Below are positions 9,742-14,186 of a stretch of DNA of 64,000 nt, piece by piece. The stretch is from Promethearchaeota archaeon (GTDB lineage: Archaea > Asgardarchaeota > Lokiarchaeia > Sigyniarchaeales > SOKP01). A program made the position numbers and the translations under genes. The stretch is from assembly GCA_016839555.1 (NCBI GenBank), contig JAEOUA010000010.1:128001-192000 (forward strand). Direction: 5' to 3'. The notes under the pieces were generated by a model. The model did not search any database. It worked only from the letters and a program-made list of their open reading frames with translations, and was not told the origin of the DNA. How positions within the stretch are numbered: position 1 is the first letter of the stretch; each line of letters opens with the position of its first letter.

Positions 9742-10986
9742 TTAATAGTTAAATTGCTTTAATCGATCAACTGTAGTATACAATCGTTTGCCTCCTCTGC
9801 GGAGATAATCCATTGCCTCTTCTATTCCCTCAATAGTCAAATTATACATAGGGATAAGGCTGGAAATTATCCTTCTGGTCCAAGGTTGCCATTCGAATCT
9901 AATAAGTTCTGGATTAAGCCAGACGGTATTATTCTTAAAATGATCTTTAATTTCTCTTAAATAATAGATGCCCGGCATTTCATTTCGATGATAATAGTAT
10001 ATTGATCCATATCGTTCGGTAAGTTCCCATGAGGCCATGGCAGCATCGCCAACTATTACAATTTTGTAATTCTTATCGTATTTTTTAAGAAATTCATCAA
10101 AATCGATGGCTTCTTCGGGATTTCTCTGAGCATTTTCATAAAGAGTTTCATAAATACAATTATGAAAATAGTAATATTTAAATTTCTTCCAATGGGACAT
10201 GTTATTGGCTGCAGAAAAGAGCTTATTTACTAAATGAGCATATGGCGTCATCGAGCCACCCACATCCATTAATAAAAGCAGCTTTACATTATTTTTTCTT
10301 CGCTTTTCAAATACAATTTCAATATCTCCCCCGTTTTTTGCAGTTTTATCAATGGTTTTATCAATATTAAGCTCATCTAACTTACCGATTTCTTCCAATT
10401 TTCGTAGCCGCTTAAGAGCTACTTTAATTTGTCTCGTATCTAATACAATATCCTTGCGATAATCTCGAAATATCCTTTTTTGGGCAATTTGTACTGCCAT
10501 GCGCATTCCTGAGCCCCCACCTAGTCTCATTCCCATCGGATTGCGTCCTGAATGCCCGAATTGGGCTTCACCTCCAGTACCTATCCATTGATTCCCAAAA
10601 TTATGCTCTTCATCTTGTTTTTGCATTAGCTCCTCAAAATGTTGTTGAAGTTCTTCTATGTTAAAATTCATTTGCAAAAATTCTTGTAGTTCTTTTCGAT
10701 ATTGTGGATCAATTTCATCTAAATCTAATGGCTTTTCTAACCAATCCCAGATTTGTTGCTTAATATCATCCGGAAATTTTAATTGGGCATCCTTAAAAAA
10801 ATTCGCAAATGCTATATCATATACATCAAATTGATGCTCATTTTTGCAGAAAATCGAACGAGAAATATAATAAAATTGTATCATATTGCTAATTAAACCT
10901 TTATCGAGCGCTTCCATTAGGGTCATGTATTCTATAAGGCTTACAGGTAAGCGCTCTTTAAGGTAGTAAAAGAATTCAACAAACAA
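9742..10986 (-). CDS. VWA-domain (CoxE-like) protein, MoxR partner
   Basis: MIDAS LLMDVGGSM, WIGTGG, YFHNCIYE, VGDAAM and WLNP motifs. Lies directly downstream of the MoxR gene; TTG start. Confidence 0.9.
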   Translation of the reverse strand: MFVEFFYYLKERLPVSLIEYMTLMEALDKGLISNMIQFYYISRSIFCKNEHQFDVYDIAFANFFKDAQLKFPDDIKQQIWDWLEKPLDLDEIDPQYRKELQEFLQMNFNIEELQQHFEELMQKQDEEHNFGNQWIGTGGEAQFGHSGRNPMGMRLGGGSGMRMAVQIAQKRIFRDYRKDIVLDTRQIKVALKRLRKLEEIGKLDELNIDKTIDKTAKNGGDIEIVFEKRRKNNVKLLLLMDVGGSMTPYAHLVNKLFSAANNMSHWKKFKYYYFHNCIYETLYENAQRNPEEAIDFDEFLKKYDKNYKIVIVGDAAMASWELTERYGSIYYYHRNEMPGIYYLREIKDHFKNNTVWLNPELIRFEWQPWTRRIISSLIPMYNLTIEGIEEAMDYLRRGGKRLYTTVDRLKQFNY

Positions 10987-11064: not shown

Positions 11065-12008
11065 TTATGTTGGAAATTTGAGCTTATCCAAGGCAACCTC
11101 TAAGTCTTTTTCCTTTTTTATTAGGGTGCCTAAAAATGGAAAGCTATTCTTAAATTTCTCTATTGAGATGCCGCTTTTGAGCAATACTCCAATCCAATCT
11201 AATAATTCTGAAGTGGAGGGCATTTTACGTAGATTTGTAATTGCTCTTAGTTGGTAAAATTTCTTAATACATTCATTTAAAAGGTTATCTTTCAAATTAG
11301 GATAATGGATCTTACAGATCTCCCTCATGAACTCTTTATCTGGAAATTCAATGTAATGAAAAACACATCTTCTTAAAAACGCATCGGGTAATTCCTTCTC
11401 ATTATTGGATGTAATTATAACAATAGGTCGATGTTTAGCTTTGAAAAATTCATCTGTTTCCTTTATATAAAATTCCATTACGTCTAATTCCTGAAGCAAA
11501 TCGTTCGGAAATTCTATTTTCCGTAGAATATAGTCAGTTATATTCTATATCGGCTTTATCGATTTCATCGATAAGAAGAACGACTTGCTCCTCAGATACA
11601 AATGCTTGTCCTAACGGTCCGAGCTCGATATAATCATGGATGTTATTTACATCCCTCTCCTCGCTACCAAACCTACTATCGTTTGATCTCCAAGTTATAA
11701 TTTAACTTTGAATTAATCTCTTAATAGTATCATATTGGTAGCAGCCAAAAATTGCTTCACTGGTCGATTTAATGTTCCATATTATCAATCTTTTACCTAT
11801 GGCTTCTGCTATTGCATGTGCAAGGAGAGTTTTTCCCGTTCTGGTAGAAATTAACATATTAAAATCTATTTCCAGGCTCTCCTTTTACGAGCAATGGTCG
11901 AGCTAAGGCTATTGACACATTTACTATGTTTTGTAGCTGCGGATCTGCGATATATTTTATGTTTGCGGTATTTACATTTCCTTCGAATTGATTAAAGGTT
12001 TGACTCAT
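11065..12008 (-). CDS. MoxR-family AAA+ ATPase, 283 aa after removal of three predicted BHB introns; exons complement(join(11065..11517,11549..11682,11713..11838,11870..12008))
   Basis: Manual translation from ATG 12008: MSQTFNQFEG...RPLLVKGEPG^TGKTLLAHAIA...WNIKSTS...YQYDTIKRL^NDSRFG...GPLGQAF...LLIDEIDKAD^IEFPNDLLQELD...ITSNNEKELPDAFLRRC...PSTSELLDW. 944 - 92 = 852 nt = 283 aa + stop, with no other lesions. Confidence 0.9.
11518..11548 (-). other. Predicted 31-nt relaxed BHB intron 3, just after Walker B of moxR
   Basis: mRNA reads GCCG-AU^A-UAGAAUAUA-ACUGAC-UAUAUUCUA-CGGA-AA^A-U. Perfect 9-bp inner stem; helix 3 of 4 pairs; in-frame UGA. Excision gives GCC GAT ATA GAA TTT (ADIEF). Confidence 0.8.
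11683..11712 (-). other. Predicted 30-nt BHB/BHL-type intron 2 of moxR
   Basis: mRNA reads GAUU-AA^U-UCAAAGUUA-AAUUA-UAACUUGGA-GAUC-AA^A. Helix GAUU/GAUC (one G-U); inner stem 8 of 9 pairs; outer ACUAUU/GAUAGU; in-frame UAA. Excision gives AGA TTA AAC GAT (RLND). Confidence 0.8.
11839..11869 (-). other. Predicted 31-nt BHB intron 1, inside the Walker A motif of moxR
   Basis: mRNA reads C-CUGG-AA^A-UAGA...UCUA-CCAG-AA^C-G. Central 4-bp helix CUGG/CCAG with two 3-nt bulges; exon-exon stem AAGGAGAG/CUCUCCUU; in-frame UAA. Excision gives CCT GGA ACG GGA AAA (PGTGK). Confidence 0.85.
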
Positions 12009-12368
12009 ATTTTTTAAAATTATAGAAAAATTAAATATTTTTTTACTTTCTCTTAAAGAATCATTAATAATTTAATTAAATATGAAAATCGATTATAGCT
12101 AATCGATAGAAATTAAAACAGCTTTCAAAAAAATAAAGAAAAACAATTAAATGGATTTCTTAAAAAAAGATTTAGAGCCATTCCACAATTGGTGAGCAAT
12201 CTAATCTTTCCAAGTGTTTAAGGTTGACTTATATTACCACTATTTTTGGGTTCTTTTATGAATATAAATACTTGGTGAATCCAATCTATTTGCTAAAACA
12301 ATAAAAAGAAAAAAAAAGAGATTAAGATTTATATGTATTTGATAAATCTTCAAATTTTTATCAAAACT

Positions 12369-13472
12369 TTAAGTTGATAGTCCACCATCGTTTATAGTCC
12401 ACTTTTTAGTAGTCTCAAGGTAATTATGGGCATGTTGAGCATCGCTGCTATATTGTACACTGCCTACCCCAAGAGTGACACTTTCTTGCAATGTTGTTAA
12501 ATTTGACCATCCAATGAGCAAGCTATCATAATTCTCAGGTGTTAATGCACTATAGTTGAACATTGCGGTCATATCTGTGACGCTTGACACATTCCAGCTA
12601 CTAATATCCTGGTTAAAAACACCAGCACCAAAGAACATATAGCTCATATCCTCAACTTTTGACACGTTCCAGCTACTAATATCCTGGTTAAAATCATAAG
12701 CACTACCAAACATGCTACTCATGGTTGTCACACTCGATACGTCCCAATTCCCAATATCTTGATTGAACGTATTAGCACCTGTAAACATGCTACTCATGGT
12801 TGTCACACTCGATACGTCCCAATTCCCAATATCTTGATTGAACTTATTAGCATAAAAGAACATAAAGTTCATATCTTCGACATTCGAGACATCCCAGCTA
12901 TTCATGCTTGGTACGGTATCAAGAGTAGAGCAATGCCGAAACGCAAAAGATAAATCAGTTGTTCCTGTTAAATCCAAAATGTCCGTTGCTGTAATATTAA
13001 GATTAGAGCACCCATAAAAGTAGCCACCTGAATTTCCTAATCGTAAAGAACCCCATTGCTTAATTTCAAGCAGTTTATCTTTATCTCCTCCGTAATGAAA
13101 TCTCCAGCCAATAATTTTTCCAGTGATACTAATGGTATATACACCTTCTGAAGCATATGTGTGATTTACTTCAGATTGGTTCCACTTCATGATCGTGGCA
13201 TTAGTCCCATCACCCCAGTAAACAGTAAAATTATATTCTCCAAATTCTTCCAAAGGTAATTGCACTTCATCGGGATTAGTTGTCCCAGATTTTGAAGTAT
13301 TCCATACTGAGATAAATGCGTTTTCTGGTACTTGATCCCCTCCGGGAGGTAATAAGAATAAATTGCCTTCCTCTGCTTCTCGCGGCCAGAAAGCGATTGA
13401 TAACCCAATAGCTACTCCACCCACTATTAACACAGCGATAATTACCACTGCAAGTGTTTTTTTACTAATCAT
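12369..13472 (-). CDS. Membrane-anchored BspA-type/DUF285 repeat surface protein with a PKD-like segment
   Basis: N-terminal hydrophobic anchor; VYWGDG..HTY..GVYTISITG; 25-aa repeats FNQDIGNWDVSSVTTMSSMF. Confidence 0.88.
   Translation of the reverse strand: MISKKTLAVVIIAVLIVGGVAIGLSIAFWPREAEEGNLFLLPPGGDQVPENAFISVWNTSKSGTTNPDEVQLPLEEFGEYNFTVYWGDGTNATIMKWNQSEVNHTYASEGVYTISITGKIIGWRFHYGGDKDKLLEIKQWGSLRLGNSGGYFYGCSNLNITATDILDLTGTTDLSFAFRHCSTLDTVPSMNSWDVSNVEDMNFMFFYANKFNQDIGNWDVSSVTTMSSMFTGANTFNQDIGNWDVSSVTTMSSMFGSAYDFNQDISSWNVSKVEDMSYMFFGAGVFNQDISSWNVSSVTDMTAMFNYSALTPENYDSLLIGWSNLTTLQESVTLGVGSVQYSSDAQHAHNYLETTKKWTINDGGLST
12585..12905. repeat. 75-bp period intragenic tandem repeats encoding DUF285 units
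   Basis: 61 identical nt at 12708-12768 and 12783-12843; ttccagctactaatatcctggttaaaa at 12592 and 12667. Confidence 0.9.
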
Positions 13473-13832: not shown

Positions 13833-14186
13833 TTAGAGCCATTCTACTGTAGATGAGCAGCCTAATCCTTCTTGATCTTTAATTCTTCCATAAACAAGGA
13901 ACGAGGCACCCTCATAACCACATTCGGGGCATTTATTTTTTGCTACTAATTCTACTAAGTCATCAATCACAACAGCATGGTTAACTGAGGCAGATACACC
14001 AAAAGGAGTAAGTACTTCTAGAAAGCCTTTCTCACCGACATCTTCTATGGGATCCAGAGATTCTAAATCTCTAATAATAATTCGAGCTTGAGGCGGTGTG
14101 TGAAAAATAAAATCTTGATATTTATCCGACCAATGGCTGCCAAAAAATCTTTTCCTTCCAATTCCCTTATTAAATTCCAGAACCAT
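13833..14186 (-). pseudogene. C-terminal fragment of a LuxE-like acyl-protein synthetase
   Basis: FGSHWSDKYQDFIFH...RD...L.P...GFLEVLTPFG...DD...CPECG...GR...GCSS matches the C-terminus of 49408-50601; the N-terminal two thirds are absent. Confidence 0.7.

What the first reader, a model, noticed from the sequence alone, without database searches (positions are those of the whole stretch)
11065..12008. Protein-coding gene (MoxR AAA+ ATPase) carrying three tRNA-type bulge-helix-bulge introns in a probable Asgard archaeon
Seen in sequence: read from ATG 12008, the gene is a clean MoxR except for three insertions of 31, 30 and 31 nt (11839-11869, 11683-11712, 11518-11548). Each contains an in-frame stop, and two also shift the frame. 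Each folds with its flanking exon into a 4-nt helix with a 3-nt bulge on each strand. Cutting after the second bulge nucleotide in all three restores GEPGTGKT, YDTIKRLND and DEIDKADIEFPNDLL, giving a 283-aa ORF with no other lesion, next to an intact VWA partner. Established: this geometry and cut position are those of the archaeal splicing endonuclease EndA, with ligation by RtcB. Archaeal mRNA introns are rare; crenarchaeal cbf5 is the classic case. Inference: this is a functional spliced mRNA with three introns in one gene. Standard annotation would call it a pseudogene, so hidden BHB mRNA introns may be widespread in this lineage. That would bear on the origin of eukaryotic non-spliceosomal mRNA splicing. 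I cannot check the literature, so novelty is unverified.
Basis: partly seen in the sequence, partly recalled or inferred. Interest (0 to 1): 0.97.

Follow-up and report, generated by a model that had tools for sequence, protein, structure and literature searches.

The report
Three tRNA-type mini-introns in moxR
A conserved ATPase gene of an uncultured Loki-type Asgard archaeon is split by three 30-31-base inserts shaped like tRNA introns, so its messenger RNA almost certainly has to be cut and re-joined by the tRNA-splicing enzymes, something published so far for only one archaeal protein gene (cbf5).

Summary
On the minus strand, the gene 12008-11065 has three inserts: 11839-11869, 11683-11712 and 11518-11548 (31, 30 and 31 nt). 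Each carries an in-frame stop. Removing them gives an 852-nt, 283-aa MoxR-like AAA+ ORF next to an intact VWA_CoxE gene.

Each insert fits the bulge-helix-bulge (BHB) geometry, and a cut after the second bulge base restores the frame. The motif is the relaxed form, with almost no outer exon helix.

The inserts are real DNA:
- Intron 2 sits at the same site in congener G002, and intron 3 in G004.
- G001, the closest public allele (L188) and about 95 other orthologs lack all three, exactly at the predicted junctions.

Selection is on both exons and structure:
- Non-synonymous difference is about 0.1 while synonymous sites are saturated.
- Intron 2 shows three compensatory stem changes.

The genome has EndA alpha and beta subunits and RtcB. 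I verified four more such introns in other genes of this genome.

No RNA data exist for this organism, so splicing is inferred, not shown. My genome-wide counts had no power. The scan has reported the same phenomenon before in more than 100 other Asgard genomes. I found no paper beyond cbf5 and one Haloferax 5' UTR.

The parts
11870..12008 (-). Exon 1 (139 nt), from ATG 12008 to the first half of the Walker A codons (GEPG, plus 1 nt of the Thr codon)
   Evidence: aligns to residues 1-47 of the intronless orthologs
11839..11869 (-). Intron 1 (31 nt). Central helix CTGG (11875-11872) with CCAG (11844-11841); bulges aa|A and AA|c; in-frame TAA. Found only in this genome among those searched.
   Evidence: DNA contigs of a second sample (X2, 0 differences) and of a marsh metagenome from another study (X4, 13 differences, no gaps) run through it.
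11713..11838 (-). Exon 2 (126 nt), TGKT...YDTIKRL
11683..11712 (-). Intron 2 (30 nt). Central helix GATT (11718-11715) with GATC (11688-11685); bulges aa|T and AA|a; in-frame TAA. Shared with congener G002 at the same site.
   Evidence: three stem pairs changed on both sides, one on one side, none in slid controls.
11549..11682 (-). Exon 3 (134 nt), NDSRFG...DEIDKAD (Walker B)
11518..11548 (-). Intron 3 (31 nt). Central helix GCCG (11554-11551) with CGGA (11523-11520), 3 of 4 pairs; perfect 9-bp inner stem; bulges at|A and AA|a; in-frame TGA. Shared with congener G004 at the same site.
11065..11517 (-). Exon 4 (453 nt including stop 11067-11065), IEFPNDLL... to the C-terminus
   Evidence: 150 aa, 66-87% identical to orthologs in 26 relatives
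9742..10986 (-). Intact partner gene, a VWA_CoxE-type protein of 414 aa. It starts at TTG, where orthologs have ATG (MFIDFFYYL...).
   Evidence: same MoxR-VWA pair in L188 and L189

Best explanation
The gene encodes a functional MoxR-like AAA+ ATPase. Its pre-mRNA carries three archaeal BHB-type mini-introns of the relaxed HBh' form.

Proposed mechanism:
1. After transcription, the last bases of each upstream exon pair with the last bases of the intron to form a 4-bp helix.
2. This helix is flanked by two 3-nt bulges and sits on a 9-10-bp intron hairpin.
3. The heterotetrameric (alpha-beta)2 splicing endonuclease EndA cuts after the second base of each bulge.
4. RtcB joins the exons and probably circularises the 30-31-nt introns.
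5. The 283-aa frame becomes translatable only after all three removals. The unspliced message stops after 49 codons.

The introns are young. They were gained within one genus, and are possibly passed between its species by recombination.

Shown here: the DNA anatomy, the orthologous presence and absence, selection on exons and on the stem, and the presence of the enzymes. Inferred: cleavage, ligation and translation of the spliced form.
For: (1) Excision at the BHB cut positions restores one 283-aa ORF, three times out of three.

(2) Intronless orthologs equal the predicted junctions exactly.
- These are G001, 16 other relatives, 80 metagenome loci, and the closest allele, P0001/L188.
- P0001/L188 is 96% identical at protein level over exon 4.

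(3) Intron 2 recurs in G002 and intron 3 in G004, at the same sites, in independently assembled genomes.
- In intron 2, all nine differences lie in the stem.
- Three pairs are compensated on both sides, against none with slid partners.

(4) Purifying selection.
- pN is 0.08-0.13 against pS of 0.75-0.86 among the four genus members.
- The spliced protein keeps 161 of 168 columns that are at least 97% conserved in 79 orthologs.
- It is as close to 76 non-genus orthologs (0.799) as the intronless G001 protein (0.797).
- It is the only copy in the genome.

(5) Machinery.
- There are two EndA paralogs. One has the Tyr/His/Lys catalytic residues and aligns to the catalytic half of two-domain EndA models.
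- The other lacks the His and aligns to the structural half.
- One RtcB gene is present.
- Asgard EndA is reported as (alpha-beta)2 with the L1 loop. This is the type that cleaves relaxed motifs (PMC5829648).

(6) The cut rule, between bulge residues 2 and 3, and the intron size class (16-44 nt) are those of the proven cbf5 case (PMC2738675).

(7) The same architecture interrupts conserved motifs of porB, AMP phosphorylase, a CoA-transferase and RNase HII in this genome.
- In all seven introns both bulges begin with A.
- 17 of the 28 tRNA genes that ARAGORN finds carry introns.
Against: - No RNA evidence: no public RNA run holds this stretch.
- The outer exon helix is nearly absent in all three motifs.
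- The helix of intron 3 has a mismatch, and its minimum-energy fold uses a competing hairpin.
- The folds of introns 1 and 2 are no more stable than shuffled sequence.
- A loose BHB pattern is very common in this 29% G+C genome. My genome-wide scans found no excess of frame-restoring BHB sites over offset controls, so the motif alone carries little weight.
- The own protein has slightly more changes at near-invariant columns (7) than its relatives (0-4), including one radical change, D to F.
Confidence: 0.85

Rival explanations
1. Fresh pseudogene. Three small hairpin-forming insertions have inactivated the gene in this lineage, and the BHB likeness is incidental.
For: Each insert brings a stop codon. 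Loose BHB patterns are abundant by chance in this AT-rich genome. The own protein has a few more changes at conserved columns than its relatives.
Against: - There is no other lesion in 852 nt.
- The same inserts persist at the same sites in two other species whose genes are otherwise intact, across saturated synonymous divergence.
- Compensatory stem changes are present.
- Overall conservation equals that of the intronless ortholog.
- It is the only copy in the genome, with an intact VWA partner.
- Three of three inserts obey the cut rule exactly.
Confidence: 0.05
2. The inserts are skipped at translation (programmed bypassing, as in phage T4 gene 60 or the mitochondrial 'byp' elements of Magnusiomyces), not removed from the RNA.
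For: The inserts are short, hairpin-forming, and carry a stop soon after the take-off point. For intron 3 a matching take-off and landing pair exists (ATA GAA at both ends, a 7-nt direct repeat).
Against: - For introns 1 and 2 the codon before the gap and the codon before the resumption do not match (GGA against AGA; TTA against TCA), as read.
- Bypassing does not explain the 4-bp helix with symmetric 3-nt bulges, nor the conserved A that opens both bulges.
- Three hops in one message would be very inefficient.
Confidence: 0.03
3. The RNA is spliced at these sites, but by machinery other than EndA and RtcB (another endonuclease or ligase, or self-cleavage).
For: The motifs lack the outer helix, and intron 3 has a mismatched central helix and a competing fold. 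Enzyme specificity was not tested here.
Against: The geometry and cut positions are exactly those of EndA substrates (PMC2738675). The (alpha-beta)2 enzyme type present here is the one known to accept relaxed motifs (PMC5829648). 30 nt is too short for a ribozyme intron. No group I or II features or Rfam hits occur in the window.
Confidence: 0.05
4. Assembly or sequencing artefact in a metagenome-assembled genome.
For: The genome is a 12-contig assembly with 6% estimated contamination.
Against: - Logan contigs of the source sample and of a second sample carry the stretch without differences.
- A marsh metagenome from another study carries intron 1 in a diverged strain.
- Introns 2 and 3 recur in other species' assemblies.
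Confidence: 0.01

Closest known systems
BHB intron in the cbf5 (pseudouridine synthase) pre-mRNA of Crenarchaeota (Watanabe 2002; Yoshinari 2006; Yokobori 2009, PMC2738675)
   Same: - A short intron (16-44 nt there, 30-31 here) inside a coding sequence.
- A relaxed BHB motif, cut between bulge residues 2 and 3.
- The host has a hetero-oligomeric EndA.
- Gain and loss among related lineages.
   Different: - A different gene and phylum (Asgard, Lokiarchaeia).
- Three introns in one gene rather than one.
- Presence or absence differs between species of one genus.
- cbf5 splicing is shown by cDNA and in vitro cleavage; here it is inferred.
Archaeal tRNA and rRNA BHB introns, including the multi-intron tRNA genes of Thermoproteales and of Asgard archaea (PMC5829648; bioRxiv 10.64898/2026.10.13.758758)
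   Same: The same motif, the same presumed enzymes (EndA, RtcB), a similar size, several per gene, and repeated recent gains with no known route of arrival.
   Different: The host RNA is a messenger. There is no tRNA body to help recognition. Removal must be exact to the nucleotide to keep the reading frame.
BHB intron in the 5' UTR of HVO_1309 of Haloferax volcanii (PMC7714728)
   Same: An mRNA processed by the splicing endonuclease, confirmed there by circular RNA sequencing and in vitro cleavage.
   Different: That intron lies in the untranslated leader (46 nt) and does not interrupt codons. There is a single case in that genome.
Unconventional HAC1/XBP1 mRNA splicing in eukaryotes (IRE1 endonuclease plus tRNA ligase, RtcB in animals); from my own knowledge
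   Same: Non-spliceosomal removal of a short, frame-changing intron from an mRNA, by an endonuclease that leaves 2',3'-cyclic phosphate ends and by the tRNA ligase.
   Different: The endonuclease is IRE1, which recognises two stem-loops, not EndA on a BHB. It is a regulated stress switch for one message. No regulation is shown here.
Translational bypass elements (T4 gene 60; mitochondrial byps of Magnusiomyces); from my own knowledge
   Same: Short inserts with stops inside otherwise intact genes, which annotation reads as broken.
   Different: Those stay in the mRNA and need matching take-off and landing codons, which two of the three inserts here lack.

Membership tests
Archaeal BHB (splicing-endonuclease) intron | Two 3-nt bulges on opposite strands separated by a 4-bp helix | tested here: met
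   Introns 1 and 2 have 4 of 4 pairs (one G.U in intron 2). Intron 3 has 3 of 4 (G.A). All have 3-nt bulges on both strands.
Archaeal BHB (splicing-endonuclease) intron | Flanking helices h (exon-exon) and h' (inside the intron) of the strict hBHBh' motif | tested here: not met
   h' is present (8-10 bp), but h is only 0-1 bp in all three (read). The motif is therefore the relaxed HBh' form, which the literature assigns to (alpha-beta)2 and epsilon2 EndA (PMC5829648).
Archaeal BHB (splicing-endonuclease) intron | Cleavage between the second and third bulge residues yields the mature sequence | tested here: met
   The predicted junctions restore the ORF. They equal the intronless orthologs base for base.
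Archaeal BHB (splicing-endonuclease) intron | Host encodes EndA and the ligase RtcB | tested here: met
   Two EndA paralogs (a catalytic alpha-like and a His-less beta-like) and one RtcB.
Archaeal BHB (splicing-endonuclease) intron | Intron absent from the mature RNA, or circular intron detected | not testable with these tools
   No RNA run holds the stretch. The runs laid were DNA contigs only.
MoxR-class AAA+ ATPase | Single AAA+ module with Walker A and B, matching the family profile | tested here: inconclusive
   The intact ortholog passes Pfam AAA (50.6 bits) and AAA_5 (45.4). Pfam AAA_3, the MoxR model proper, reaches only 16.4 bits against a cut-off of 27. The best NCBIfam match is MadB-type ATPase, far below its cut-off. 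Public records name close homologs 'MoxR family' or 'MoxR-like ATPase'.
MoxR-class AAA+ ATPase | Adjacent VWA-domain partner gene | tested here: met
   VWA_CoxE protein directly downstream. The same pair occurs in L188 and L189.
Pseudogene | Relaxed constraint: dN/dS near 1 and further lesions | tested here: not met
   pN 0.08-0.13 against pS 0.75-0.86. 161 of 168 near-invariant columns are kept. There is no other frameshift or stop.
Translational bypass element | Matching take-off and landing codons | tested here: not met
   Matched only for intron 3 (ATA/ATA). Introns 1 and 2 are mismatched (read).

The most novel reading that the evidence does not exclude
Endonuclease-dependent mRNA splicing is routine in this Asgard lineage, and its mini-introns are still on the move. 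Under this reading:
- Dozens of protein genes need EndA and RtcB before they can be translated.
- Introns appear and disappear between species of one genus.
- They spread between related genomes by homologous recombination that carries flanking exon sequence along.

Evidence for the last point: this gene is closest to the intronless L188 allele over most of its length. Next to intron 2 it is closest to the other intron-2 bearer, and next to intron 3 to the other intron-3 bearer.

This would be a population of non-ribozyme, protein-dependent mRNA introns in the closest prokaryotic relatives of eukaryotes.
Probability: 0.4. Interest if true: 0.92.

Novelty: new member of a known kind. Interest (0 to 1): 0.78.

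Why it matters
- The papers I could search confirm BHB splicing inside a coding sequence for one archaeal gene only, cbf5 in Crenarchaeota. A 2020 study still calls it the only case besides one 5' UTR (PMC7714728).
- Here a housekeeping-type ATPase of an Asgard archaeon carries three such introns, and other core genes of the genome carry more.
- If the introns are spliced, gene expression in the closest prokaryotic relatives of eukaryotes already tolerates split protein genes. Those genes depend on a protein enzyme for intron removal.
- That bears on how intron-tolerant gene expression and non-spliceosomal mRNA splicing (HAC1/XBP1 with the tRNA ligase) arose.
- Practically, standard annotation breaks such genes into fragments or calls them pseudogenes. 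Asgard gene inventories and completeness estimates are therefore biased.
- The polymorphism within one genus offers a natural system for asking how BHB introns are gained.

Tried and rejected
**Genome-wide census**
- I scanned for BHB motifs whose excision rescues an ORF, with cut-offset controls. It had no power.
- A loose BHB pattern occurs about 0.7 times per base in this 29% G+C genome.
- Antisense frames and same-strand gene boundaries gave about 140 or more false rescues at every offset, with no excess at the canonical geometry.
- Exons of multi-intron genes are too short for my coding filters. Only 1 of the 3 moxR introns passed them.
- I therefore give no count.

**Covariance model**
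- MAFFT could not align the introns of different genes.
- A model built from the three moxR copies scored other true introns at 7-15 bits, the noise level. I did not search the genome with it.

**RNA evidence**
- No RNA holder is listed for the stretch.
- The runs laid were DNA contigs and showed no joint that skips an intron.

**Other checks that led nowhere**
- Repeat family: no intron has another copy in the genome (blastn-short), so they are not a multicopy element with a conserved sequence.
- Target-site duplication: direct repeats at the ends are seen only for intron 3 (7 nt) and partly for intron 2, not in the other introns. I rejected this as a general feature.
- First-stage candidates in top6B and argG were not resolved by my quick motif searches. 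They are neither confirmed nor refuted.
- Rfam and tRNA scans of the window found nothing.
- Thermodynamic z-scores were not significant for introns 1 and 2.

Full report
**1. What is in the sequence**

The window is G000:C10:128001-192000 of a 3.74-Mb, 12-contig genome with about 29% G+C.

On the minus strand an ORF starts at ATG 12008 and stops after 49 codons. Three more ORF pieces follow in other frames, down to the stop at 11067-11065.

Removing 11839-11869 (31 nt), 11683-11712 (30 nt) and 11518-11548 (31 nt) leaves 852 nt that translate into one 283-aa protein. It carries Walker A (GEPGTGKT) and Walker B (DEIDKAD), and has no further lesion. Each insert has an in-frame stop, and the two 31-nt inserts shift the frame.

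**2. Geometry**

In the archaeal BHB motif, the end of the upstream exon pairs with the end of the intron over 4 bp. This follows from tRNA numbering and from PMC2738675. A 3-nt bulge lies 3' of this helix on each strand, and EndA cuts between bulge residues 2 and 3.

All three inserts fit:
- Intron 1: CTGG aa|A ... CCAG AA|c.
- Intron 2: GATT aa|T ... GATC AA|a.
- Intron 3: GCCG at|A ... CGGA AA|a.

Between the bulges lies a 23-24-nt hairpin with an 8-10-bp stem.

The fit is not perfect:
- Intron 3 has one G.A in the 4-bp helix.
- The outer exon-exon helix is only 0-1 bp in all three, which makes them the relaxed HBh' type.
- Free folding returns exactly the expected structure for introns 1 and 2, but with z-scores of only -0.8 and -1.0.
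- For intron 3 (z -4.0) the minimum-energy fold uses a competing hairpin between CGGAAA and the start of exon 4.

The 4-mers that pair as well with the three C' strands make up 0.7%, 1.3% and 12.6% of the gene's own 4-mers.

**3. Are the inserts real, and where else are they?**

DNA support:
- Logan contigs of the source sample carry the stretch without differences.
- A contig of a second sample (X2) covers 11770-12200, and so intron 1, without differences.
- A marsh metagenome from another study (X4) has a diverged contig (13 differences, no gaps) that runs through intron 1.

Orthologs in relatives:
- A search of 40 relatives with the exon-4 protein found orthologs in 26.
- All those outside the genus have open frames of 279-323 aa, except two cut by contig ends (G023, G040).
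- Within the genus, G001 has none of the introns. G002 has only intron 2 and G004 only intron 3, each at exactly the same site.

Wider sampling:
- None of the 80 metagenome loci (77-87% protein identity) shows an intron-sized insert or a split match.
- The closest public allele is a JGI protein of 283 aa, 96% identical over exon 4. It sits on a 430-kb contig with the same MoxR-VWA pair, is uninterrupted, and equals the predicted spliced junctions.

So the boundaries are fixed by comparison, independently of any motif. The introns are confined to one genus.

**4. Is the interrupted gene alive?**

- Among the four genus members, non-synonymous difference is 0.08-0.13 while synonymous sites are saturated at 0.75-0.86.
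- The spliced protein keeps 161 of the 168 columns that are at least 97% conserved in 79 orthologs. Six of the seven changes are conservative and one is D to F.
- Its mean identity to 76 non-genus orthologs (0.799) equals that of the intronless G001 protein (0.797).
- It is the only copy in the genome.
- Its VWA_CoxE partner is intact and starts at TTG where orthologs have ATG.

Structure is also under selection:
- The two copies of intron 2 differ at nine positions, all in the stem.
- Three pairs changed on both sides, one changed on one side, and one mismatch is repaired. The loop, the C' strand and the bulges are invariant.
- Sliding the partners gives no compensated pair.
- The two copies of intron 3 differ only in the loop and in the last base.

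A decaying pseudogene does not explain this.

**5. Machinery**

The genome has two EndA paralogs.
- The 198-aa ORF has the Tyr, His and Lys of the catalytic triad. It aligns to the C-terminal, catalytic half of two-domain EndA models.
- The 208-aa ORF lacks the His and aligns to the N-terminal half.
- This fits an (alpha-beta)2 enzyme.

One intact RtcB gene is present.

PMC5829648 reports (alpha-beta)2 EndA with the L1 loop for Asgard archaea. It also states that only this type and the epsilon2 type cleave relaxed motifs.

ARAGORN finds only 28 tRNA genes, 17 of them with introns. This suggests many more tRNA genes are interrupted beyond its reach, as described for other Asgard lineages in bioRxiv 10.64898/2026.10.13.758758.

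**6. Not an isolated case**

Starting from first-stage notes, I verified four more introns of the same build in this genome:

| Gene | Place in G000 | Length | Motif restored or split |
|---|---|---|---|
| porB | C6:79408-79438, + | 31 nt | NTGIQ-SGGTPPY motif split |
| AMP phosphorylase | C12:205678-205708, + | 31 nt | DKHSTGGVPGNK |
| CoA-transferase | C6:53409-53438, - | 30 nt | KVE-PP motif split |
| RNase HII | C12:69954-69981, + | 28 nt | DEAGRGP |

In all seven introns the first base of both bulges is A. Each intron sequence is unique in the genome.

My attempts to count all such introns failed. The loose motif is far too common in AT-rich DNA, and frame-rescue tests are swamped by gene boundaries and antisense frames. 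Offset controls showed no excess. A covariance model had no discriminating power. I therefore give no genome-wide number.

**7. History**

Over most of its length the gene is closest to the intronless L188 allele (0.86-0.92 nucleotide identity). The picture changes in the 60-nt windows next to the shared introns:
- Next to intron 2 it is closest to G002, the other bearer of intron 2.
- Next to intron 3 it is closest to G004, the other bearer of intron 3 (0.95 against 0.85).
- The 38 nt immediately upstream of intron 3 are identical in this genome and G004.

The numbers are small. The pattern is what transfer of an intron together with flanking exon sequence would leave, so I report it as a hint, not a result.

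**8. Rivals**

- Pseudogene and artefact are dealt with above.
- Translational bypassing would need matching take-off and landing codons. These exist only for intron 3 (ATA/ATA), not for introns 1 (GGA/AGA) and 2 (TTA/TCA).
- Another splicing machinery cannot be excluded without biochemistry. The geometry is that of EndA substrates, and 30 nt cannot hold a ribozyme.

**9. What is known**

- The searchable literature confirms coding-sequence BHB splicing only for cbf5 of Crenarchaeota (PMC2738675). That paper says introns in other protein genes had only been predicted.
- A 2020 study of Haloferax adds one 5' UTR intron and repeats that cbf5 is the only other case (PMC7714728).
- Seven searches found no paper on BHB introns in Asgard protein genes.
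- Within this scan the phenomenon has been noted before: 531 notes in at least 106 other genomes.
- Some of those notes have follow-ups that report RNA-derived contigs lacking the intron exactly. These are unchecked AI notes that I did not test.
- moxR is interrupted in several other genomes too.

**10. Verdict**

This is a real, selected, three-intron protein gene of a Lokiarchaeial Asgard archaeon, and a new member of the cbf5-type class of mRNA introns. Splicing by EndA and RtcB is the best explanation (0.85), but RNA evidence for this organism is lacking.

Noticed in passing
G000:C6:79408-79438 (+); G000:C12:205678-205708 (+); G000:C6:53409-53438 (-); G000:C12:69954-69981 (+): Four more BHB-type mini-introns (31, 31, 30 and 28 nt) split conserved motifs of porB, AMP phosphorylase, a family-III CoA-transferase and RNase HII. 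In these and the three moxR introns, the first base of both 3-nt bulges is always A (14 of 14).
   Followed up: partly
window 11440-11760 (spliced CDS positions about 210-420): Mosaic similarity. The gene is closest to the intronless allele L188 overall. Next to intron 2 it is closest to G002, and next to intron 3 to G004, the other bearers of those introns. The 38 nt upstream of intron 3 are identical to G004. This may be intron transfer with co-conversion of exon flanks; the numbers are small.
   Followed up: partly
window 13836-14186 (-): This 117-aa ORF matches only the C-terminal end of LuxE acyl-protein synthetase (profile 307-385 of 391), so it is a remnant. In the close relative L188, a full 420-aa LuxE plus an RHH/PIN pair lie upstream of moxR. 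Here a DUF285 repeat protein (12369-13472, -) sits in their place.
   Followed up: partly
window 10984-10986 (-): The VWA_CoxE partner gene starts with TTG, where orthologs in relatives have ATG (MFIDFFYYL...). No ATG is available in frame.
   Followed up: partly
G000:C10:214283-214285 (-) and G000:C12:201791-201793 (+), outside the window: Two HdrA-like genes have a single in-frame TGA inside the motif ...TFPTDDCSI*ICGP / ILGP..., flanked by good coding sequence on both sides. These look like selenocysteine codons.
   Followed up: no
whole genome G000: ARAGORN finds only 28 tRNA genes, 17 of them with introns of 8-43 nt. The set is clearly incomplete for a genome estimated 92% complete, which suggests many tRNA genes are interrupted at non-canonical sites.
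   Followed up: no
window 11504-11530 (-): The 3' end of intron 3 (CGGAAA) can pair with the start of exon 4 (UUUCCG), six bases downstream. In free folding this hairpin wins over the BHB central helix. It is kept in G004 and could compete with, or time, splicing of intron 3.
   Followed up: no
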